Of a stretch of DNA of 64,000 nt, positions 2,002 to 27,346 are shown in pieces. Positions within the stretch are counted from its first letter, which is position 1; every line of letters starts with the position of its first letter. The DNA comes from a virus (taxonomy: Duplodnaviria > Caudoviricetes), in the IMG/VR virus record IMGVR_UViG_3300048881_000780; one strand, given 5' to 3'. The notes beneath the pieces are model-generated. The model ran no database searches and was not told where the DNA came from. It saw nothing but the letters and a program-made list of their open reading frames with translations. A program made the translations under genes and the position numbers.

Positions 2002-2610
2002 ATGAGTGAACTTTATGGGCTAACGACACTGGTCGGAATATTTTTAATTACTCTAGGGGCCATAAAGATCATGGAGCTTTTACTTTTTAGAAAGGTTGAA
2101 ATGAAAATAACTTTCAATGGAATCTCTTATCCAGTTAGAATTGATTATGAGTGCAAACCGCTTTCAAAAGCTTTCTTTAGTTGGAATAATGAAGAACACT
2201 TTATGAATCAAATAAAAAATAACTTAGAATTTGAAGATATGGATATACACAAACTGTCCTCTTTAATGAATAACCCATATCACAATTTCAAACTTAAAGA
2301 GCTTGAGAGGGTCGGAATTAGAACTGTTGGCAAATTTGGAGAACGTAATGTATCTGGAATATTATTTACAAGACTAAAAAATAAAGAAAAACCACAAGAA
2401 GTCATCCGCATAAGATTTAGATTTGAGGCCAGTATTGATCCTGACTATGTCGCAGTAAAGAAATTTGGTGAAGTCATGGGAAACAATACGAAGCTAGAAG
2501 GTGAGTTTTTTACAAAGGAAGACATCGAAAATACTTTATTAGAAATCATAGAAAAACAATTTCCAAAGTCTAATCCTAAAGTATCGGTATCAGAAATAGA
2601 GGCATCTTAA
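2002..2610 (+). CDS. membrane-anchored NPxxNF-family protein (paralog 1)
   Basis: N-terminal TM helix; LMNNPYHNFKLKEL matches the genes at 25982-28071. Confidence 0.75.
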   Translation: MSELYGLTTLVGIFLITLGAIKIMELLLFRKVEMKITFNGISYPVRIDYECKPLSKAFFSWNNEEHFMNQIKNNLEFEDMDIHKLSSLMNNPYHNFKLKELERVGIRTVGKFGERNVSGILFTRLKNKEKPQEVIRIRFRFEASIDPDYVAVKKFGEVMGNNTKLEGEFFTKEDIENTLLEIIEKQFPKSNPKVSVSEIEAS

Positions 2611-2684: not shown

Positions 2685-2701
2685 TTAACACTTCTTGTTA
2701 A
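2685..2701. promoter_or_regulatory. 17-bp palindrome TTAAC-N7-GTTAA
   Basis: TTAACACTTCTTGTTAA upstream of extended -10 TGATATAAT (2728-2736). Confidence 0.7.
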
Positions 2702-2740
2702 AAATTATATACAAATAATAGAAATAGTGATATAATGGAG

Positions 2741-2886
2741 TTGAGTCTTTATTGTATTTTGGCAATAGAGTCTAACTTAGGTGAAGACCTAGCTCTGCGA
2801 ATATCACTAGTTGATAGGCAAAACAATTTGAGAATTCATTAATTTTAAAACTAATAATTCTATACTTTGACAACTCGCAGACTCAA
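2741..2886 (+). ncRNA. candidate structured leader RNA, copy 1
   Basis: Closing stem TTGAGTC/GACTCAA, hairpins at 2747-2770, 2778-2791 and 2831-2861, stem CTGCGA/TCGCAG; motif 2866-2885 shared with 22313-22332. Confidence 0.6.
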
Positions 2887-2913
2887 TTAATTTGTATAGT
2901 ATTGGAGTTAGTT

Positions 2914-3645
2914 TTGAAAAATCTAAAAATCACCAACAAGAATGAACTTATTAAATTAAAAGAAGATTTCTCGAAAGAGTATAAGAAGTTCTTTAATCAA
3001 GATCTCAAGAATTCAAAAGTGGAACAATTTCTAGCACAACTATATGGGGCAAAGAACTTTAATACCCTCATGGGATCTTTTGAAAATAGCGAAAATATCG
3101 AATTCAAATCTTTTGAAGAATTCCAATTATTTATTGAAGATCAGGAAAACCCATATTCTAAGAGAAAACTAGCGCTCGTTGAGTATTTTCCCTCTCCTTA
3201 TATTGAAATAGAAGTTACTGAAAATTATGATAAAAGCGGAAATTTTAATACTAATAGAATTCATTATATAGATGGTGACGCAATTGCCGATTGTGAAGAA
3301 ATTTCTAAATTAAAGGCCTTTTTAAAGAATTTGAAGCTCTCTGGAAAAGAATCTGAGTTATCTATTATCTATGCTCGCTTAATGGATTTAGATACTGATT
3401 ATACGGCCCAGGCGATATTTCAAGGTTACGCTGGTGCAGACTATCTTGAATGGGAAGAGTGTATGAATAGTATAATTAATACCTTTAATTTCTATAGAGA
3501 GATATTCAGTGGAGACCTCTTCGGTGCTCTAATGTTCTCTATGGATTTTCTATTATTTTGTAATGATGGTATGATCAGCGATAGCGTTGTTACCCTACTC
3601 GATAATACTTTCACTCATGTCGATATAAATAGATCATTTTCATAA
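2914..3645 (+). CDS. protein with Glyoxalase_8-like helical N-terminal domain (paralog of 22363-23082)
   Basis: TTG start after GGAG; LKNSKVEQFLAQLYGAKNFNTL aligns with IRNSKVEAFMADFYGFKDYNSL. Confidence 0.7.
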   Translation: MKNLKITNKNELIKLKEDFSKEYKKFFNQDLKNSKVEQFLAQLYGAKNFNTLMGSFENSENIEFKSFEEFQLFIEDQENPYSKRKLALVEYFPSPYIEIEVTENYDKSGNFNTNRIHYIDGDAIADCEEISKLKAFLKNLKLSGKESELSIIYARLMDLDTDYTAQAIFQGYAGADYLEWEECMNSIINTFNFYREIFSGDLFGALMFSMDFLLFCNDGMISDSVVTLLDNTFTHVDINRSFS

Positions 3646-3651
3646 TTTGTG

Positions 3652-3696
3652 CTCTAAGTGGTGGTAAAATATAACTATAATTATCACCACTTGGAG
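3652..3696 (+). other. 16-bp hairpin covering the RBS of the next gene
   Basis: CTCTAAGTGGTGGTAA pairs with TTATCACCACTTGGAG (two G-U pairs). Confidence 0.55.
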
Positions 3697-3702
3697 ATTT
3701 AA

Positions 3703-4101
3703 ATGAGTGAGATGTTAAATGACACGAGACTTCAATTATTGATGACAGGATACAATGACACTGTATTACTGGTGGTCCTTACTCTGGTACTCATCGGGTT
3801 GGGTTTATCCTTCATTCAAAAAAATCAAATTTCATTTCTTGTTCTATTAATTGCGACACCTATGGTGATTTTTATAAGTATCAAAACTGATCCAGTTTGT
3901 TTATCTAAAGCTCCTTTCATGAAAACTCAAGCGATTGACTTTTCAAAATATCTCCATAAATTCCCAGTGTATGACTTAAAAAGTAAGAAGTTTGTCAAAG
4001 TTGACTATTCTGACTATAAGATAGTCAAGTGTTCCCTGGAAGATTTGGATACAATTAAGTCGAAAACATCATTAATAAAAAAGATCAAAGGTCATTATTA
4101 A
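3703..4101 (+). CDS. 2-TM membrane protein, IDFSKY family (paralog of 19434-19910)
   Basis: PVCLSK..IDFSKY..FPVYDLKSKKF..IVKCS shared with 19434-19910. Confidence 0.7.
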   Translation: MSEMLNDTRLQLLMTGYNDTVLLVVLTLVLIGLGLSFIQKNQISFLVLLIATPMVIFISIKTDPVCLSKAPFMKTQAIDFSKYLHKFPVYDLKSKKFVKVDYSDYKIVKCSLEDLDTIKSKTSLIKKIKGHY

Positions 4102-19382: not shown

Positions 19383-19399
19383 TTGACACATCATGTTAA
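19383..19399 (+). promoter_or_regulatory. palindrome/-35
   Basis: TTGACACATCATGTTAA. Confidence 0.75.
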
Positions 19400-19433
19400 A
19401 AAGATTAAGATAGAGGTAACACCGGGGATAATT

Positions 19434-19910
19434 ATGACAGATTTACTAGATTCGATATATTTCTATTTAACACTAAGGGAGCAAGGTTCTGTTGTTCATG
19501 CTGTTGCGTTTGGGTTTCTCTTGACTGGAATAGGGGCCTCGATAATATCTTATAACCATGATTACGATGGGGTACATGGGAGAACTTTAACTTTCATCAC
19601 GACTATACTTACTGGTTTAATTGTACTGACTCTAGTATCTGGACTTCACAAACCAGAGGCTCCTTATTGTCTAAGTAAAAAGATTGATCTTTTAAACAAT
19701 ATTGTTTCAAATGAGTCAAGAAATACGATCATAGATTTCTCTAAGTATTCAGCTGACTACCCTCACTATGACCTAAAAACTAAAAAGTTCTCACGTCTAA
19801 ATTATAAAAAGTTAGAGTTAGTAAAGTGTTCAGAAAGCGAGAAGTTTTTAATTGGTGAAATTTCTAGAAAATTTGAGAGTTCTCATTTTTACGATGGGAA
19901 ACCTATATGA
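19434..19910 (+). CDS. 2-TM membrane protein, IDFSKY family
   Basis: PYCLSK..IDFSKY..YPHYDLKTKKF..LVKCS. Confidence 0.7.
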   Translation: MTDLLDSIYFYLTLREQGSVVHAVAFGFLLTGIGASIISYNHDYDGVHGRTLTFITTILTGLIVLTLVSGLHKPEAPYCLSKKIDLLNNIVSNESRNTIIDFSKYSADYPHYDLKTKKFSRLNYKKLELVKCSESEKFLIGEISRKFESSHFYDGKPI

Positions 19911-20482
19911 AATATAAAGTATCCGAAGTACCTCAGTATATTAGTGTTGAATATAATACCGAAATTGGTTTTGGTCACCTCAGAGAGTGGCTAGAAGCTC
20001 TAGATCAAGAAACTAAAGAAAACTTTGGCAGTAATTACTGTCTAGATCTTATCCCCGACTTCCAAAGAGGACATGTTTGGTCACTGGATCAAAAGGTGGC
20101 CTTTGTCGAGCACGTTTTAATGGGTGGTCGATCGGGACTGGAAATTCTATTTAATGCAACCTTTTACGCTAAATCTAGTGATGGAATCCCAATGGATTCA
20201 TACTGCGTAGATGGTCTACAGAGAATAAGTGCAGTTCTAGATTTTTTAGACGAGAAGTTTAAAGTATTTCCTCATTTAAACAATGGTGGATTGTTAGCAT
20301 CTGACTTTAGAGATCAAAGAAGACTTAAGCAATTTAGATTTAAAGTTCAAGTTGGATCATTTCAAACTAGAGCAGAAATTCTAGAGTGGTACCTCCAAGT
20401 TAATAGTGGTGGAACCCCACACACTAAAGAAGAGCTTGAAAGAGTTAGAAAGCTTCTTAAAAATGAATCCTCGAGAAAGTAG
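19907..20482 (+). CDS. DUF262 (ParB-fold) domain protein
   Basis: PDFQRGHVW, VDGLQR, NSGGTPH. Confidence 0.85.
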   Translation: MKYKVSEVPQYISVEYNTEIGFGHLREWLEALDQETKENFGSNYCLDLIPDFQRGHVWSLDQKVAFVEHVLMGGRSGLEILFNATFYAKSSDGIPMDSYCVDGLQRISAVLDFLDEKFKVFPHLNNGGLLASDFRDQRRLKQFRFKVQVGSFQTRAEILEWYLQVNSGGTPHTKEELERVRKLLKNESSRK

Positions 20483-21210
20483 TGATTCAGAAGAGGCCAT
20501 TAATTATTCACATTAACTTTAGAATGGATAGAGATTATGAACCTCTTATTTTACCAAATATAGAAAAAGGGTCGTGGATTCAATTTACAGACTTAGAAAA
20601 AGATAGAATTTATCTAAAGGAAAATAGCACAGAAGATCTCCCCTATACAACTGATGGCCTATATAAAATTAAGACCCATGGAAATATCCCAATTGCAAGA
20701 CTAATTAAAGACTGTAAACAACTTAGAAAATCGATTTTCAAGATAGAAAGTGGTGATCACCACTTCTATGGCAATTCAATCATTAAAGGGTGCTCTAATC
20801 TTAAAGAATTTATCTCCACTGGTTCTTGCCAAGTTTATAATGCTGGCAGTATGTTTGAAAATTGCACCTCCTTAGGTATTGTAGATATACAAACTATGTC
20901 ATTTTTTGAATGTCACTTTATGAGTTATATGTTTTACAATTGTAAAAAATTAAAAGAGATAAAGTTCCCCACTAACTTTGGTCGACAAATTGGAAATCTT
21001 CACTCTATGTTTTATGGGTGTAATTCTCTAAAAGATATTGATATGGAAGGCTTTAGACCAACTCTTTCAAATTGTAACATCGAAGATATCAGAAAGTACT
21101 GCCCTGCTAGAATAAGAATTAATAAAACCCTAAGAAAGTGGTCCCCTTTTAAAGATAACCTGGATTTCTACACTCAATCTGTAAATGATTGGATTCAATC
21201 GATATCGTAG
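20482..21210 (+). CDS. DUF285/BspA-like repeat protein with NxW tail
   Basis: SMFENCTSL, YMFYNCKKL, SMFYGCNSL repeats; ends NDWIQSIS. Confidence 0.75.
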   Translation: MIQKRPLIIHINFRMDRDYEPLILPNIEKGSWIQFTDLEKDRIYLKENSTEDLPYTTDGLYKIKTHGNIPIARLIKDCKQLRKSIFKIESGDHHFYGNSIIKGCSNLKEFISTGSCQVYNAGSMFENCTSLGIVDIQTMSFFECHFMSYMFYNCKKLKEIKFPTNFGRQIGNLHSMFYGCNSLKDIDMEGFRPTLSNCNIEDIRKYCPARIRINKTLRKWSPFKDNLDFYTQSVNDWIQSIS

Positions 21211-22077: not shown

Positions 22078-22133
22078 AAATATTTCTCACTACTATTGTT
22101 ATATATCTGTAATTATACCATATTAGCAATTAG

Positions 22134-22150
22134 TTAACACAACTTGTTAA
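22134..22150. promoter_or_regulatory. palindrome just upstream of a TTGACC/TATACT promoter
   Basis: TTAACACAACTTGTTAA. Confidence 0.7.
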
Positions 22151-22193
22151 TAATTAATTGACCATTATCAGATTAATAAGTTATACTTAGATT

Positions 22194-22352
22194 GATCCAA
22201 TGTGAATCTCACCTCTTGGTTCAAACAGAGGAGACTCTGGCCCTAGGACTCATAAGCGAGATGGCGATATCTTTGATCATTTAATTGCTTAAAATCTTTA
22301 TAATTATGCAATTTTGATAATTCCTAGACTCAGATTTATACTTGCATTGGTG
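22194..22352 (+). ncRNA. candidate structured leader RNA, copy 2
   Basis: Closing stem CCAATGTGA/TTGCATTGG, hairpin CCTCT/AGAGG, stem CTAGGA/TCCTAG, hairpin AATTGC/GCAATT; motif shared with copy 1. Confidence 0.6.
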
Positions 22353-22362
22353 CGGAGATTTT

Positions 22363-23082
22363 ATGAAAAACCTAATTATTCAAACAAAAGAAGATCTACA
22401 AAAAGCGAAAGAGGATTTTAAAAACTCCTACTTTAATAACTTTAATCAAAAAATAAGAAACTCAAAAGTTGAAGCCTTTATGGCCGACTTCTATGGTTTC
22501 AAAGATTATAATTCGCTACTTGGTTCATTTAAGAATGAAGCTATGAAATTTAGCAGTTTTAATGAAATGCTCTCCTATTTTCAAGGTGAAAGTGCCACTT
22601 ATGAAGAAAAGGTTCATATTGCGTCAAAATACTTTCCATTAAATATGGGAATGGTTGAATCTTCGGGCAATAAAAACTTGGGGGTAATTGTAGCAGTTGA
22701 AGATGGACCTACTATGAGTTGTTATCGGGACGTAGAAGAGCTTTATGTGTGGTTTAACTTCTTTAATAGGTCTAAGCTCAATAAATCTATTGAGAAGGCC
22801 GTAGAGCGCTCTAGAGAGCCCGTATTATCTAAATCAAGGAAGAGATATGCTCTCGATGATATACTTCCTCATGAAAATATTAACGATGACTATTATGACA
22901 AAGAGGAATACACCAAGACGTTGTATCATTTGATCTATTTTTACCGAGAATTATTCAATGGTAGCTACCGTCAAGCAATGAAAGATGCGCTAGATTTTTT
23001 GTATTTCACTGCCCAAAAAGAAGAGGTTGAAATTGCTGTTTTTAGAGATAGAAAAGATGGCGTTATCTCACTCGCAAAATAA
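22363..23082 (+). CDS. protein with Glyoxalase_8-like N-terminal domain (paralog of 2914-3645)
   Basis: ATG after GGAG; shared N-terminus and shared FYRE(L/I)F.G...DFL.F C-terminal block. Confidence 0.7.
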   Translation: MKNLIIQTKEDLQKAKEDFKNSYFNNFNQKIRNSKVEAFMADFYGFKDYNSLLGSFKNEAMKFSSFNEMLSYFQGESATYEEKVHIASKYFPLNMGMVESSGNKNLGVIVAVEDGPTMSCYRDVEELYVWFNFFNRSKLNKSIEKAVERSREPVLSKSRKRYALDDILPHENINDDYYDKEEYTKTLYHLIYFYRELFNGSYRQAMKDALDFLYFTAQKEEVEIAVFRDRKDGVISLAK

Positions 23083-23096
23083 GTTAGGAGAAGTTA

Positions 23097-23369
23097 ATGA
23101 AAATTGTGAAAGTAATAGTTATGATCTTAATGTCAATTTCACTTAATGCAAAAACGGTTACCCTTAAAGATATTAAAGTTGGTGGCTGTTTTACAACTTC
23201 AGCTACTATTAATTTTTCTAGTAATCCATATATCTTGCATATAAAATTAAGCGCTAATACTTACGGGCATATCTATCGTGGTTCTCATCTAATAGTGGAA
23301 GAGGAGCGTTTTTCTCATCATATAGTTACACCTATCCCATGCTTTGGATATTACAAGATTCACAATTGA
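23097..23369 (+). CDS. small secreted protein
   Basis: Signal peptide ending SLNA. Confidence 0.6.
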   Translation: MKIVKVIVMILMSISLNAKTVTLKDIKVGGCFTTSATINFSSNPYILHIKLSANTYGHIYRGSHLIVEEERFSHHIVTPIPCFGYYKIHN

Positions 23370-23382
23370 CACATCATGTTAA
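23366..23382 (+). promoter_or_regulatory. palindrome/-35
   Basis: TTGACACATCATGTTAA, 17 bp to TATAAT. Confidence 0.8.
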
Positions 23383-23422
23383 ATAATATATAATAGAGAT
23401 AACCAACAAAGGACATTATCCA

Positions 23423-23614
23423 ATGAACCAAGCAAGTTACTCTTTTATTGAATTATCAAAGAAATCTCAAGAAAAGGCCATTTTAGACTATCAGAATGGT
23501 TGGAGAGAAACTCACCCAAATGACTCTCTTAGTGATGGAGACGTTGTTTCAATTTTAACGACTGATTTAAAGTGCGATAGATATAAATCAGACGGATCTC
23601 TAACAGTAGACTAA
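23423..23614 (+). CDS. hypothetical protein
   Basis: YSFIELSKKSQEKAI phage-like N-terminus. Confidence 0.55.
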   Translation: MNQASYSFIELSKKSQEKAILDYQNGWRETHPNDSLSDGDVVSILTTDLKCDRYKSDGSLTVD

Positions 23615-24039: not shown

Positions 24040-24126
24040 ACTTCTTGGGATATTTTTACAAAACCCCTAACTTTTTGGGATATTTTCACGAACTCCACTA
24101 CTTGTTGGGTTATTTTCACTAAAACT
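24040..24126. repeat. imperfect 30-bp direct repeat x3
   Basis: ACTTnTTGGGwTATTTTyACnAA at 24040, 24070 and 24100. Confidence 0.8.
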
Positions 24127-24791: not shown

Positions 24792-25460
24792 TTAATCATC
24801 TAAACTCTTTATCCAAGAGTTATCTATAGAGATCTTTGGTTCTATTATTGTGATATTTTCAGATTGTGACTTAAATAAGTGCGCGTTGTAAGGTGAAACT
24901 AGGACCTCTTTTAAGTAGTGGCACCCTTCGAAGATATGGTCAATATTAACATCTTTACTTAGTTTAACTTTTGAAAAATCAAGAACCTCTAGTTTTGTGC
25001 AATTTGCAAACATTCCCTTCATATCTTTAACATTTGTTAAATCAATATTTGATAAATCAACATTTTCAATTCCAGATGACTGAAACATTACTTTCATATC
25101 TTCAAGTTTGTTAAAACTTGAATCTTTAAAAGAAACCTTCTTAAGAGAGAAGGCCATCCTAAACATATCATCCATGCTTCGCCAGTCACAATCCCCAAAA
25201 CTAATGACCTCGGTTGCGTAACACATTAATCCAAGAGCAGTTGCACATAAATTGCCACTAATTTTAATGATGTATTCTCCAGGGTCTTTATAAGTGTGAT
25301 ATAGTTTTTTTATATTCGAGTCATAGATATAAGACTCCTCTGAACCGTCTCCCCAATCTATATTAAAGTCTAATTCAGGGTAGTCTTGTAGTATCAGCTT
25401 TGGACTATGTAAAGGTCCTAATATTTGAATCTTAAATATAAAGGGCCTATCTCTATTCAT
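24792..25460 (-). CDS. PKD-like + DUF285/BspA-like repeat protein with NxW tail
   Basis: RPFIFKI, IDWGDG..HTY..PGEY, TNVKDMKGMFANC; ends NSWIKSLDD. Confidence 0.8.
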   Translation of the reverse strand: MNRDRPFIFKIQILGPLHSPKLILQDYPELDFNIDWGDGSEESYIYDSNIKKLYHTYKDPGEYIIKISGNLCATALGLMCYATEVISFGDCDWRSMDDMFRMAFSLKKVSFKDSSFNKLEDMKVMFQSSGIENVDLSNIDLTNVKDMKGMFANCTKLEVLDFSKVKLSKDVNIDHIFEGCHYLKEVLVSPYNAHLFKSQSENITIIEPKISIDNSWIKSLDD

Positions 25461-25933: not shown

Positions 25934-25981
25934 AGTATGGATTATGATATAAACTACAGGAACACTACACCTAGAGGAATT

Positions 25982-26629
25982 ATGGAATTCATAAAGTTCA
26001 ACTTCAACTTCATCTGTTTTGCGATTGTGAGTCTACTTGCCGCAACTGGGATCATTCTATTGATTGAAACTATCATAACCAAAATATTAGCTTCATATAA
26101 TAAATGCAGATCTGTTTCTGTTCCTATCGGGAATGACGACTCATTTAGGTTTGAGTACAATGTTTTAAAATCAGAGAAACCTCTCTATCTAGATTCATAT
26201 TATGATAAAAGGATTATGGAACACATAACCGACATTTTAAAGCATAGTGAAGTAGATTTAGAAGATATCAATGTCTTTATGGGAAATCCTTTTCATAATT
26301 TTCAGTTGAATAAATTAAAAAATAAGTACGACATACGAGTAAAAAGTATCAATGGGCTTAACTTCTTTGCAGGCACTAATTATACTGGAAAGTCTAGGGT
26401 TACATTGGAACAAGATAGTTTAACTCTCCAAACTAGCCTTCATTATAAAGTAGAATTTCCTAGTAACTTAATTCTCAGAGAGTCATACAATGAACTAATG
26501 AAAAACCTTAGTTTCCCGCGACCTATAAAGTCTAGTGATGATGCTAAAGAATTTATCCTGAAGTATCTAAACTCTATTTATCCGGGCAAGAAGTTTGTCG
26601 TAATCATCGAAAGCATCGAAATTAACTAA
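25982..26629 (+). CDS. membrane-anchored NPxxNF-family protein (paralog 2)
   Basis: TM helix; FMGNPFHNFQL. Confidence 0.75.
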   Translation: MEFIKFNFNFICFAIVSLLAATGIILLIETIITKILASYNKCRSVSVPIGNDDSFRFEYNVLKSEKPLYLDSYYDKRIMEHITDILKHSEVDLEDINVFMGNPFHNFQLNKLKNKYDIRVKSINGLNFFAGTNYTGKSRVTLEQDSLTLQTSLHYKVEFPSNLILRESYNELMKNLSFPRPIKSSDDAKEFILKYLNSIYPGKKFVVIIESIEIN

Positions 26630-26668: not shown

Positions 26669-27346
26669 ATGGCATATTTATTAAAGAATTACTTATGGGT
26701 TATCGGACTTGCTTTAATTACTACCGTAACATATCGCCTTTATTATTGGTGGATAGAATCAACAAATCAAGAGCACTTAGAATTTTGTAAAAAGTGGAGA
26801 TCCACTGCAATTACTCTTTTTTGTGAAGATATTTCTAAAACTTTTAATTTTAACTATGAATTAATCCCAGGTCATAGGTCTCTCGATATGGGAGCATGTT
26901 TTGATGAAATCATCAAAGATCATATAATTAGAGTCTATAAGAGTAATGGAACAAACTTAAACACCCTCAACACCTTCATGAAGAATCCTTGTCAAAACTT
27001 TATGATCAGAGATCTATTAAATAATCACGGTATTCTCATTAGAAGAATTAACAAAGTTAAGCTAAACGTGCAGTCAGATTATTCAGGAGAATGTCCTGCT
27101 ATTATCAGAGAGCATGATACTAACTATAATGTCTTAGTAGATTATCGGGTAGATTTTCCAGAATATCTCCAAATGAAAGAAACTTACGATGAATTGATGA
27201 GTGGGATGAGTGGATTAAAACTTCCCTCACCAATAGAACTTCACGATGACGCCAGGGATGCTATCTATAAATATCTAAACACAGTATACCCAGGCTTTAA
27301 GTTTGGAGTAACTATTTTAAAGGTCGAATTACAGGAGGCCCTGTAA
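26669..27346 (+). CDS. membrane-anchored NPxxNF-family protein (paralog 3)
   Basis: TM helix; FMKNPCQNFMI. Confidence 0.75.
   Translation: MAYLLKNYLWVIGLALITTVTYRLYYWWIESTNQEHLEFCKKWRSTAITLFCEDISKTFNFNYELIPGHRSLDMGACFDEIIKDHIIRVYKSNGTNLNTLNTFMKNPCQNFMIRDLLNNHGILIRRINKVKLNVQSDYSGECPAIIREHDTNYNVLVDYRVDFPEYLQMKETYDELMSGMSGLKLPSPIELHDDARDAIYKYLNTVYPGFKFGVTILKVELQEAL

What the first reader, a model, noticed from the sequence alone, without database searches (positions are those of the whole stretch)
22194..23082. Second copy of the leader RNA + Glyoxalase_8-like protein module, with divergent middle region
Seen: same layout as copy 1 (TTAAC-N7-GTTAA palindrome, promoter TTGACC/TATACT, structured leader, gene). 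The closing stem CCAATGTGA/TTGCATTGG ends just before the GGAG RBS, so folding could gate translation. The two proteins match at the N-terminus (MKNL.I..K..L.K.KEDF...NSKVE.F.A..YG.K..N.L.GSF.N) and in a C-terminal block (FYRE.F.G......DFL.F) but differ in the middle. Inference: diversified specificities of one RNA-protein system, each paralog possibly recognising its own RNA.
Basis: partly seen in the sequence, partly recalled or inferred. Interest (0 to 1): 0.7.

Follow-up and report, generated by a model that had tools for sequence, protein, structure and literature searches.

The report
Second diverged copy, pseudoknotted leader RNA
The 175 bases in front of this gene are a real, much-diverged second copy of a folded leader RNA found in no RNA catalogue; it accompanies one small three-helix protein domain in many bacteria and probably controls how much of that protein is made.

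Summary
Window 22134-23082 has the same layout as copy 1 at 2685-3645: palindrome, promoter, a leader of about 170 nt, then a paralogous gene.

The leader is a real homolog of copy 1. A covariance model trained without it finds it end to end (33.7 bits, E 8e-6; next hit E 0.18). It forms 25 of 28 alignable model pairs, and 12 pairs differ from copy 1 on both sides yet stay paired.

Its 5' arm belongs to hairpin P1. Its 3' arm is the downstream strand of pseudoknot P5 (AUGCAA/UUGCAU), which ends 6 nt before the GGAG.

The same architecture lies before 27 of 30 Pfam PF20066 (Glyoxalase_8) genes that I sampled from Pseudomonadota, whatever domain follows the N-terminal module. It matches no Rfam family. 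The window's proteins share only that three-helix N-module, and distantly (hhalign E 7.5e-5; no Pfam hit). They are not glyoxalases.

Most likely this is a cis-acting translational leader, perhaps bound by its own protein. I found nothing for paralog-specific recognition.

The scan reported this RNA class before, on other DNA and for copy 1 here.

The parts
22134..22150 (.). 17-bp palindrome TTAACACAACTTGTTAA, an element-wide operator-like site centred about 52 nt upstream of the inferred transcription start
   Evidence: 9 copies in the window against 0.16 expected. Copy 1 has one at 2685-2701, at the same relative position.
22158..22187 (+). Sigma-70-type promoter: TTGACC (22158-22163), 18 nt, TATACT (22182-22187)
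   Evidence: 10 of 12 matches. In all five relatives a -10 box ends 8-10 nt before P1. The transcription start near 22193-22195 is inferred.
22188..22362 (+). Leader RNA, copy 2, spanning the whole covariance-model match
   Evidence: Model R2, trained without this copy: 33.7 bits, E 8.3e-6, model positions 1-176. 25 of 28 alignable pairs are formed.
22197..22219 (+). P1 hairpin: CCAA/UUGG (22197-22200 with 22216-22219) plus GUGA/UCAC (22202-22205 with 22209-22212). The PF20066-type leaders lack this hairpin.
   Evidence: It also appears in the minimum-energy fold of 22188-22375.
22226..22239 (+). P2 hairpin CAGAG-GAGA-CUCUG
   Evidence: The helix covaries across the five sequences.
22243..22248 (+). 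PL, 5' strand CUAGGA of the long-range helix
   Evidence: Pairs with 22322-22327. PL is 100% paired in five sequences, and three of its six pairs change on both sides.
22249..22268 (+). P3 mini-hairpin CUC-AUAAGC-GAG (22249-22260) followed by the conserved motif GGCGAU (22263-22268)
   Evidence: The motif corresponds to GGCGAA/GGCAAA in the relatives and GGUGAA/GGCGAA in PF20066 leaders.
22282..22306 (+). P4 hairpin UAAUU/AAUUA. It is all A-U and is the weakest element in this copy.
   Evidence: P4 is stronger in the other four sequences (helix 5).
22306..22311 (+). P5 pseudoknot, 5' strand AUGCAA, ending 4 nt before GAUAA
   Evidence: All five leaders have a run of 6-7 complementary bases at the same place. 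PF20066 leaders show the same geometry.
22316..22331 (+). Conserved motif GAUAA (22316-22320), PL 3' strand UCCUAG (22322-22327) and invariant AGACUC (22326-22331)
22342..22347 (+). P5 pseudoknot, 3' strand UUGCAU, starting 14 nt after PL and ending 6 nt before the GGAG.
22354..22357 (+). Shine-Dalgarno GGAG. It is not inside any conserved helix.
22363..23082 (+). Gene, 239 aa. The three-helix N-module is residues 8-55 or so; the rest is of unknown fold.
   Evidence: AF2 block-mean pLDDT is 80-89 over residues 11-50. Atlas structure rows are and the hhalign result.
23097..23369 (+). 90-aa gene with a hydrophobic N-terminus, 14 nt downstream, probably co-transcribed
   Evidence: No terminator-like site lies between the two genes. 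Co-transcription is inferred.
2685..3645 (+). Copy 1 of the module: palindrome 2685-2701, leader 2736-2913, gene 2914-3645

Best explanation
Window 22188-22362 is the 5' untranslated leader of the mRNA for the 239-aa gene. It is a genuine but strongly diverged paralog of the copy-1 leader.

Anatomy: two 5' hairpins (P1, P2), then a long-range helix (PL) that encloses a mini-hairpin (P3), the motif GGCGAU, a hairpin (P4) and the motif GAUAA. A pseudoknot (P5) joins the strand just 3' of P4 to the strand 7-12 nt upstream of the GGAG.

This is an AT-rich variant of an uncatalogued leader class. That class precedes genes whose products begin with the three-helix N-module of Pfam PF20066, whatever domain follows.

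Likely mechanism (inferred): the compact PL+P5 pseudoknot holds the ribosome's landing zone next to the unpaired Shine-Dalgarno and so sets the rate of translation initiation. The most probable effector is the N-module of the encoded protein itself, giving autogenous control as in ribosomal-protein leaders.

Shown here: homology, covarying helices, position relative to promoter and start codon, and the link between RNA and domain. Inferred: transcription, translational gating and protein binding.
For: Homology of copy 2:
- Model R2, trained on copy 1 plus L001-L003 only, finds 22188-22364 at 33.7 bits, E 8.3e-6; the next hit has E 0.18.
- 28 loci that carry the primary-sequence motifs by chance do not score.

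Structure:
- In the five-sequence alignment 94.2% of cells pair, against 74.7% in shuffles and 30-45% when partners are slid. 20 of 34 pairs change on both sides.
- Copy 2 forms 25 of 28 alignable pairs. 12 of them differ from copy 1 on both sides.
- There are 11 G-U cells against 3 A-C cells, which fits folding of the sense strand.

Pseudoknot P5:
- All five leaders have 6-7 complementary bases at the same place, with four different sequences.

Wider class:
- 27 of 30 PF20066 loci from 401 Pseudomonadota genomes have the ordered elements PL5', P3, GGYRAA, RRYAA, PL3', ending 22-46 nt before the start codon. In the four of our five leaders that the descriptor matches (copy 2: 36 nt) it is 29-36 nt.
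- Their PL is 100% paired in 144 cells of a plain MAFFT alignment, with 4 of 6 pairs compensatory.
- A P5-like pairing reaches p<0.05 in 11 of 24. In those 11 the geometry matches: the 5' strand ends 4-10 nt before RRYAA (ours 3-7) and the 3' strand starts 11-21 nt after PL (ours 14).

The RNA follows the N-module:
- It precedes the N-module fused to Glyoxalase_7, the ClpX zinc finger, the Lon substrate-binding domain (with or without Clp_N), unknown tails and the full PF20066 body.

Protein link:
- hhalign of our five proteins against 24 PF20066 N-domains: E 7.5e-5, same columns 28-60.
- 7 of 10 Atlas structure rows carry PF20066.
Against: - No expression or binding data exist.
- Folding energy is not better than shuffles (z -0.64). 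The family-consistent nested fold of copy 2 (-17.9 kcal/mol; -29.3 with extra pairs) is well above the minimum-energy fold (-38.6).
- The Shine-Dalgarno is not inside any conserved helix.
- P5 in copy 2 alone is not significant (585 of 5000 shuffles do as well).
- P3 and P4 of copy 2 are short and weak.
- The five-sequence alignment was fitted to the model, which inflates pair counts.
- The link to the PF20066 leader class rests on architecture and a descriptor that I tuned on both sets. A model of our five leaders finds none of the 30 PF20066 loci. Our GAYAA differs from their RGYAA at position 2.
- The N-module is only mildly basic (net about +3, my count), and no known RNA-binding fold was recovered.
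Confidence: 0.5

Rival explanations
1. The leader is a riboswitch. The conserved junction motifs (GGCRA, GAYAA, AGACUC) and the pseudoknot form a pocket for a small molecule or ion. The N-module genes are regulated because they act on, or also sense, that signal.
For: The RNA has a multi-helix junction with a pseudoknot, invariant unpaired nucleotides and covarying stems, which is the usual look of a riboswitch aptamer. The full-length PF20066 group seems to have a separate hairpin that hides the Shine-Dalgarno after P5, like an expression platform. I read that by eye and did not count it.
Against: The RNA follows a 55-residue helical module across at least five unrelated C-terminal architectures, not an enzyme or transporter of one pathway. 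No candidate ligand emerges from the gene context. In copy 2 no conserved alternative pairing involves the Shine-Dalgarno.
Confidence: 0.2
2. A 5'-3' closing stem (22197-22205 with 22342-22350) gates the ribosome-binding site, and the two paralogs have diverged so that each protein recognises only its own leader.
For: The 9-pair complementarity is real (-8.4 kcal/mol) and appears in one minimum-energy fold. It would compete with both P1 and P5, so copy 2 could in principle switch between two folds. Nearly every helix differs in sequence between the two leaders.
Against: None of the four relatives has an equivalent stem (by eye). Copy 1 has a different 5'-3' complementarity (UUGAGUCU/AGACUCAA), which L003 and copy 2 do not share. 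What the two leaders and the two proteins share are the unpaired RNA motifs and the N-module, so cross-recognition is the simpler expectation. Helix sequences drift in any covarying RNA and are no sign of new specificity.
Confidence: 0.1
3. The RNA is not mainly a translational switch. It could be a working partner or handle: a scaffold that assembles with the nascent N-module into a ribonucleoprotein, or an element that sets mRNA stability or location.
For: The RNA and the N-module are coupled across very different proteins. The Shine-Dalgarno is left unpaired in our subfamily. No terminator-like site lies in the scanned regions that include leader and gene, so RNA and protein are made from one molecule.
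Against: The position is conserved, ending about 30-45 nt before the start codon. The P5 3' strand sits inside the region a 30S subunit covers, and some members have hairpins that hide the Shine-Dalgarno. All of this fits control of initiation. I know of no precedent for such a cis-RNP with a three-helix domain.
Confidence: 0.15

Closest known systems
Uncatalogued leader RNA upstream of Pfam PF20066 (Glyoxalase_8) N-module genes in Pseudomonadota, as re-derived here on loci L039-L068
   Same: Same order of elements: a hairpin abutting GC-N, PL 5' strand, P3 hairpin, GGYRAA, variable hairpin, P5 5' strand, purine-rich xxYAA, PL 3' strand, P5 3' strand, Shine-Dalgarno. Same distance from PL to the start codon and same P5 geometry. 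The downstream protein begins with the same three-helix module.
   Different: Our subfamily is AT-rich, has an extra 5' hairpin P1, has GAYAA instead of RGYAA, and carries an invariant AGACUC after PL. It shows no separate hairpin that hides the Shine-Dalgarno. A model of our five leaders does not detect the PF20066 leaders. The relation therefore rests on architecture and gene context, not on a statistical RNA match.
Autogenous ribosomal-protein leaders with pseudoknots (E. coli rpsO/S15, alpha operon/S4); recalled from textbook knowledge, not tested here
   Same: A structured 5' UTR with a pseudoknot next to the ribosome-binding site, sitting before the gene for the protein proposed to bind it.
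   Different: Those proteins are known RNA binders whose leader mimics their rRNA site. Here the protein domain has no known function and binding has not been shown.
Pseudoknotted translational riboswitches (for example the SAM-II and preQ1 classes); recalled, not tested
   Same: Covarying stems, invariant junction nucleotides and a pseudoknot strand close to the Shine-Dalgarno.
   Different: Those pseudoknots include the Shine-Dalgarno itself and regulate genes of one pathway. Here the Shine-Dalgarno is unpaired and the common denominator is a protein domain.
Motif of cluster 630,527 in bioRxiv 10.64898/2026.10.21.760802
   Same: The preprint describes a covarying motif immediately upstream of genes for glyoxalase, flavin monooxygenase or NmrA-like proteins and reads it as a shared 5' leader. 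It may be the same class.
   Different: The text I could read gives no sequence or structure, so identity cannot be checked.

Membership tests
Local leader family (copy 1, L001, L002, L003) | Significant full-length match to a covariance model trained without the candidate | tested here: met
   R2: 33.7 bits, E 8.3e-6, model positions 1-176; next hit 15.3 bits. E 3.6e-5 in 292 kb with negative-control loci.
Local leader family (copy 1, L001, L002, L003) | Helices P1, P2, PL, P3 and P4 kept through compensatory changes | tested here: met
   25 of 28 alignable pairs are formed in copy 2, and 8-14 pairs change on both sides against each relative. Family-wide, 20 of 34 pairs covary. The alignment was fitted to the model.
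Local leader family (copy 1, L001, L002, L003) | P5 pseudoknot between the strand 3' of P4 and the strand just 5' of the Shine-Dalgarno | tested here: met
   AUGCAA (22306-22311) with UUGCAU (22342-22347). All five have 6-7 pairs at the same place. Per-sequence shuffle p values are 0.004-0.38, and 0.12 for copy 2.
PF20066-associated leader RNA class | Sits directly 5' of a gene whose product starts with the N-module; PL 3' end lies 22-46 nt before the start codon | tested here: met
   36 nt in copy 2 (22327 to 22363). 27 of 30 PF20066 loci show 22-46 nt.
PF20066-associated leader RNA class | Long-range helix PL enclosing P3, GGYRAA, a variable hairpin and RGYAA one nucleotide before the PL 3' strand | tested here: inconclusive
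   The order and PL are present. GGCGAU matches 5 of 6 positions. GAUAA has A where the class has G. The descriptor that fits both sets was tuned on both.
PF20066-associated leader RNA class | Statistical RNA homology (covariance-model match) between the two sets | tested here: not met
   R3, built from our five leaders, finds nothing in 30 PF20066 loci at E up to 10. GC content is 0.31-0.36 in ours and 0.48-0.67 in theirs.
Pfam PF20066 (Glyoxalase_8), protein | Score over the curated cut-off (23.7 bits) | tested here: not met
   No hit for the whole protein at E up to 1. No PF20066 hit for residues 1-66 at E up to 10.
Pfam PF20066 (Glyoxalase_8), protein | N-terminal three-helix module (profile positions about 3-65) | tested here: inconclusive
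   hhalign against 24 PF20066 N-domains: probability 62%, E 7.5e-5, columns 28-60 in both. AF2 gives three confident helices at 9-27, 33-43 and 49-53. 7 of 10 Atlas structure rows carry PF20066, TM 0.65-0.73 by query.
Pfam PF20066 (Glyoxalase_8), protein | C-terminal body of the family (profile positions about 65-143) | tested here: not met
   No Pfam hit. The hhalign match stops at column 60. The C-terminal model has low confidence.
Any Rfam 15 family | Match at the gathering score or a suggestive E-value | tested here: not met
   Window at gathering score: none. Region 22080-22420 at E up to 10: only snoRNA and miRNA noise. L001-L003: noise only. 20 PF20066 loci: none even at E up to 1.
Riboswitch | Direct, specific binding of a small ligand that changes the fold | not testable with these tools
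   Needs in-line probing or a similar assay.
Autogenous protein-binding leader | The encoded protein binds its own leader and represses translation | not testable with these tools
   Only the coupling between RNA and domain is shown.

The most novel reading that the evidence does not exclude
The leader RNA and the three-helix N-module form a portable, self-contained control cassette: an RNA that is read by the first 55 residues of the protein it encodes. Evolution has placed this cassette in front of many unrelated C-terminal domains. On this 361-kb element, two cassettes that have drifted apart in every helix may now work as two insulated pairs that do not cross-talk.
Probability: 0.15. Interest if true: 0.85.

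Novelty: new variant of a known kind. Interest (0 to 1): 0.6.

Why it matters
A covarying, pseudoknotted leader that tracks one small protein domain of unknown function, whatever that domain is fused to, gives a direct way to learn what the domain does. It also adds a candidate to the short list of protein-binding or orphan regulatory leaders.

Copy 2 is useful in its own right:
- With copy 1 and three metagenomic relatives, it defines an AT-rich subfamily so diverged that almost every helix has been rewritten while pairing is kept. This makes clear which nucleotides cannot change: GC-N, GGCRA, GAYAA and AGACUC.
- It provides a natural pair of paralogs in one replicon for cross-binding and cross-regulation tests.

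In Pseudomonadota the same N-module is fused to substrate-recognition domains of Lon and Clp proteases. This hints at a link to regulated proteolysis that is worth testing.

Tried and rejected
Searches for more protein relatives:
- The word-indexed search found only the protein itself.
- The full HMMER search gave three metagenomic relatives and nothing else of this family.
- The search for related loci found none in metagenome or genome contigs.

Search for more RNA copies with a primary-sequence pattern:
- None in viral contigs.
- 26 metagenome and 2 genome matches, all chance hits, mostly in GC-rich DNA and several plainly coding. I reused them as negative controls.

Other negative results:
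- No match in the phage collection by distant blastn.
- No whole genome is held for this window.
- The single-sequence model R1 found copy 1 but not copy 2. Only the four-sequence model did.
- There is no third copy in the window, even with filters off.
- The AF2 model is confident only for the N-module. Foldseek's best E was 0.75 and VIA-align's best Z was 4.7, so the tail stays unassigned.
- Neighbouring genes of L001-L003 have no relatives in the window.

Ideas I rejected:
- A proximal promoter-like site (TTGATA, 17 nt, TATACT, 22314-22342) overlaps the conserved GAUAA...AGACUC region and is not kept in the relatives. I read it as a by-product of the RNA motifs.
- A second pseudoknot between AGACU and AGUCU next to P1 is possible in three of the five leaders but not in L003 or copy 2. 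AGACUC never varies, so this cannot be tested.
- The Legionella N-module genes fused to DnaB_C (L032, L034-L038) have their own conserved leader. Our models do not score it, and the copies are too alike to show covariation. I could not place it in the class.
- A literature search for PF20066 or Glyoxalase_8 found nothing.

Full report
WHAT IS THERE

The window is AT-rich (33% GC). It lies on a 361-kb contig that earlier notes of this scan call a giant plasmid-like element.

At 22134-22150 sits the palindrome TTAACACAACTTGTTAA. The pattern TTAAC-N7-GTTAA occurs nine times in the window against 0.16 expected, each time upstream of a gene. It is an element-wide site, not a feature of this module. 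In both copies it is centred about 50 nt upstream of the inferred transcription start.

A sigma-70-like promoter (TTGACC, 18 nt, TATACT, 22158-22187) follows. Next comes about 170 nt without a conserved reading frame, then GGAG (22354-22357) and the ATG at 22363 of a 239-aa gene that ends at 23082.

Copy 1 has the same layout: palindrome 2685-2701, an extended -10 promoter, a leader, and a TTG start at 2914.

The two proteins are 34% identical over almost their whole length (E 7e-26). They are about 55% identical in the first 58 residues (my count).

IS THE LEADER A CONSERVED STRUCTURE?

Folding energy alone says nothing: z = -0.64 for copy 2 and -1.40 for copy 1.

The protein has only three further relatives among 1.8 billion representatives. 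All three are on short metagenomic contigs (L001-L003). Their upstream DNA shows the same series of hairpins with different sequences.

I built a covariance model from L001 alone, with a hand-drawn structure. It found L002, L003 and copy 1 (E 1.5e-16, 1.6e-13 and 1.4e-6) but not copy 2.

A second model, from those four sequences and without copy 2, matched 22188-22364 end to end at 33.7 bits, E 8.3e-6. The next hit in the window had E 0.18. The result held when I added 28 loci that carry the conserved primary-sequence motifs by chance. None of them scored.

A five-sequence model with filters off found exactly two copies in the window.

In the five-sequence alignment:
- 94.2% of cells pair, against 74.7% in shuffles and 30-45% when partners are slid.
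- 20 of 34 pairs change on both sides.
- Copy 2 forms 25 of 28 alignable pairs, and 12 of them differ from copy 1 on both sides.
- G-U cells outnumber A-C cells 11 to 3, which fits folding of the sense strand.

One caveat applies: the alignment was fitted to the model.

ANATOMY OF COPY 2

- P1: 22197-22219
- P2: 22226-22239
- PL 5' strand: 22243-22248
- P3: 22249-22260
- GGCGAU: 22263-22268
- P4: 22282-22306
- P5 5' strand AUGCAA: 22306-22311
- GAUAA: 22316-22320
- PL 3' strand: 22322-22327
- AGACUC: 22326-22331
- P5 3' strand UUGCAU: 22342-22347
- GGAG: 22354-22357

P5 crosses PL, so the fold is a pseudoknot. All five leaders have 6-7 complementary bases at the same two places, with four different sequences: GAUAAUC/GAUUAUC, AAUCCU/AGGAUU, CUAUAC/GUAUAG and AUGCAA/UUGCAU. 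Per-sequence shuffle p values run from 0.004 to 0.38.

However, it uses the 5' arm of P1 and the 3' strand of P5, and the relatives have no equivalent. I read it as, at most, a competing pairing specific to copy 2.

THE WIDER CLASS

Earlier notes of this scan claim that the same RNA precedes PF20066 genes in many bacteria. I tested this myself.

A search for PF20066 in 401 Pseudomonadota genomes gave 57 genomes with a match and 30 loci. The upstream regions show a striking common leader:

GCC, [GCUCGC], hairpin, GGUGAA, variable part, GGCAAU, [GCGAGC], NCC.

A descriptor of these ordered elements hits 27 of 30 loci, 22-46 nt before the start codon. In a plain MAFFT alignment of 24 leaders, the long-range helix is paired in all 144 cells, and four of its six pairs change on both sides.

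A P5-like pairing is individually significant in 11 of 24 leaders. In those 11, its 5' strand ends 4-10 nt before the xxYAA motif and its 3' strand starts 11-21 nt after PL. In our five leaders the values are 3-7 and 14, and I had set them before I looked at the PF20066 set.

The leader occurs whether the N-module is followed by the PF20066 body, Glyoxalase_7, a ClpX zinc finger, a Lon substrate-binding domain with or without Clp_N, or an unknown tail.

None of this matches Rfam 15, even at E up to 1.

The link between our subfamily and this class rests on three things: the architecture, the position and the shared protein module. The model of our leaders does not detect the GC-rich ones. Our GAYAA differs from their RGYAA at one position, and our subfamily has an extra 5' hairpin P1. 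I put membership at about 0.7.

THE PROTEIN

Pfam gives no hit. AlphaFold2 is confident only for three helices at residues 9-53. Fold searches of the whole model give nothing usable.

The Atlas's own model of residues 6-62 resembles PF20066 proteins in seven of ten rows. hhalign of our five proteins against 24 PF20066 N-domains gives E 7.5e-5 and probability 62%, aligning NSKVEAFMADFYGFKDYNSLL with SHSAALEMIARQHGARDWNTL.

So 'Glyoxalase_8-like' is fair for the N-module only. Nothing suggests a glyoxalase fold in the tail.

HOW IT PROBABLY WORKS

In all five relatives the -10 box ends 8-10 nt before P1, so the transcript starts with the structure. No terminator-like site was found in the scanned region that includes leader and gene. 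The Shine-Dalgarno is unpaired, but the P5 3' strand lies 7-12 nt upstream of it, inside the zone a 30S subunit covers.

I therefore favour control of translation initiation by the PL+P5 pseudoknot. Because the RNA follows a 55-residue module rather than any enzyme or pathway, the module itself is the most likely effector (autogenous control, about 0.4). A small-ligand riboswitch comes second (about 0.2), and a non-switch role such as RNP assembly or mRNA stability third (about 0.15).

What both leaders share are the unpaired motifs, and what both proteins share is the N-module.

PRIOR WORK

The scan reported this class before, on other DNA (e1-5692711, e1-5246794) and for copy 1 of this window (e1-5762714). 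My tests agree with those notes on the structure and on the link to PF20066. I did not test the reported link to efflux pumps.

A 2026 preprint (10.64898/2026.10.21.760802) mentions a covarying motif upstream of glyoxalase, monooxygenase or NmrA genes. It may be the same RNA, but the text I could read gives no sequence.

Noticed in passing
window 24046-24119: Three direct repeats with a 30-nt period in an intergenic stretch: TTGGGATATTTTTAC, TTGGGATATTTTCAC and TTGGGTTATTTTCAC. They look like iterons or a row of binding sites (read).
   Followed up: no
window 2002-2610, 25937-26629, 26669-27346; also 3703-4101 and 19383-19910: Further paralog families. Three proteins of 202-230 aa share a block (M-x-N-P-x-x-N-F ... 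a C-terminal Y-P-G-x-K-F in two of them). Two membrane proteins share F-S-K-Y ... Y-D-L-K-[ST]-K-K-F ... V-K-C-S. The element seems rich in diverged gene duplicates.
   Followed up: no
window 20482-21210 (+) and 24792-25460 (-): Both products end in the N-x-W-I-x-S-[IL] tail (NDWIQSIS, NSWIKSLDD) that earlier notes of this scan describe as a shared C-terminal tag. The two leader-linked proteins do not carry it.
   Followed up: no
window 23366-23394: A perfect consensus promoter (TTGACA, 17 nt, TATAAT, 12 of 12 matches) lies right after the 90-aa gene and before the 63-aa gene at 23423. It marks the 3' limit of the likely two-gene transcript.
   Followed up: no
window 22261-22284: A seven-codon reading frame (MAISLII, then stop) inside the copy-2 leader overlaps the conserved GGCGAU motif. 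The four relatives lack it, so it is probably meaningless.
   Followed up: partly
L032 1340-1488; L035, L036 and L038 about 430-600: Legionella-type genes fuse the N-module to a DnaB_C-like P-loop domain. They have their own conserved leader of about 130 nt (UCGCU..AGCGA hairpin, CCCUUCC/GGAAGGG long-range pairing, GAAAAAUAAA/UUUAUUUUUC pairing around it). The pseudoknot topology is similar but the sequence differs. Our models do not score it.
   Followed up: partly
L063, L066, L068 (Pseudomonadota genomes): The PF20066 N-module is fused to substrate-recognition domains of AAA+ proteases: the ClpX zinc finger, the Lon substrate-binding domain and Clp_N. Each gene has the leader RNA in front. 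This hints at a link between the module and regulated proteolysis.
   Followed up: partly
window 3654-3694: An 8-bp inverted repeat (AAGTGGTG ... CACCACTT) lies between the copy-1 gene and the next gene, directly before that gene's GGAG. There is no T-run, so it is not a typical terminator (read).
   Followed up: no
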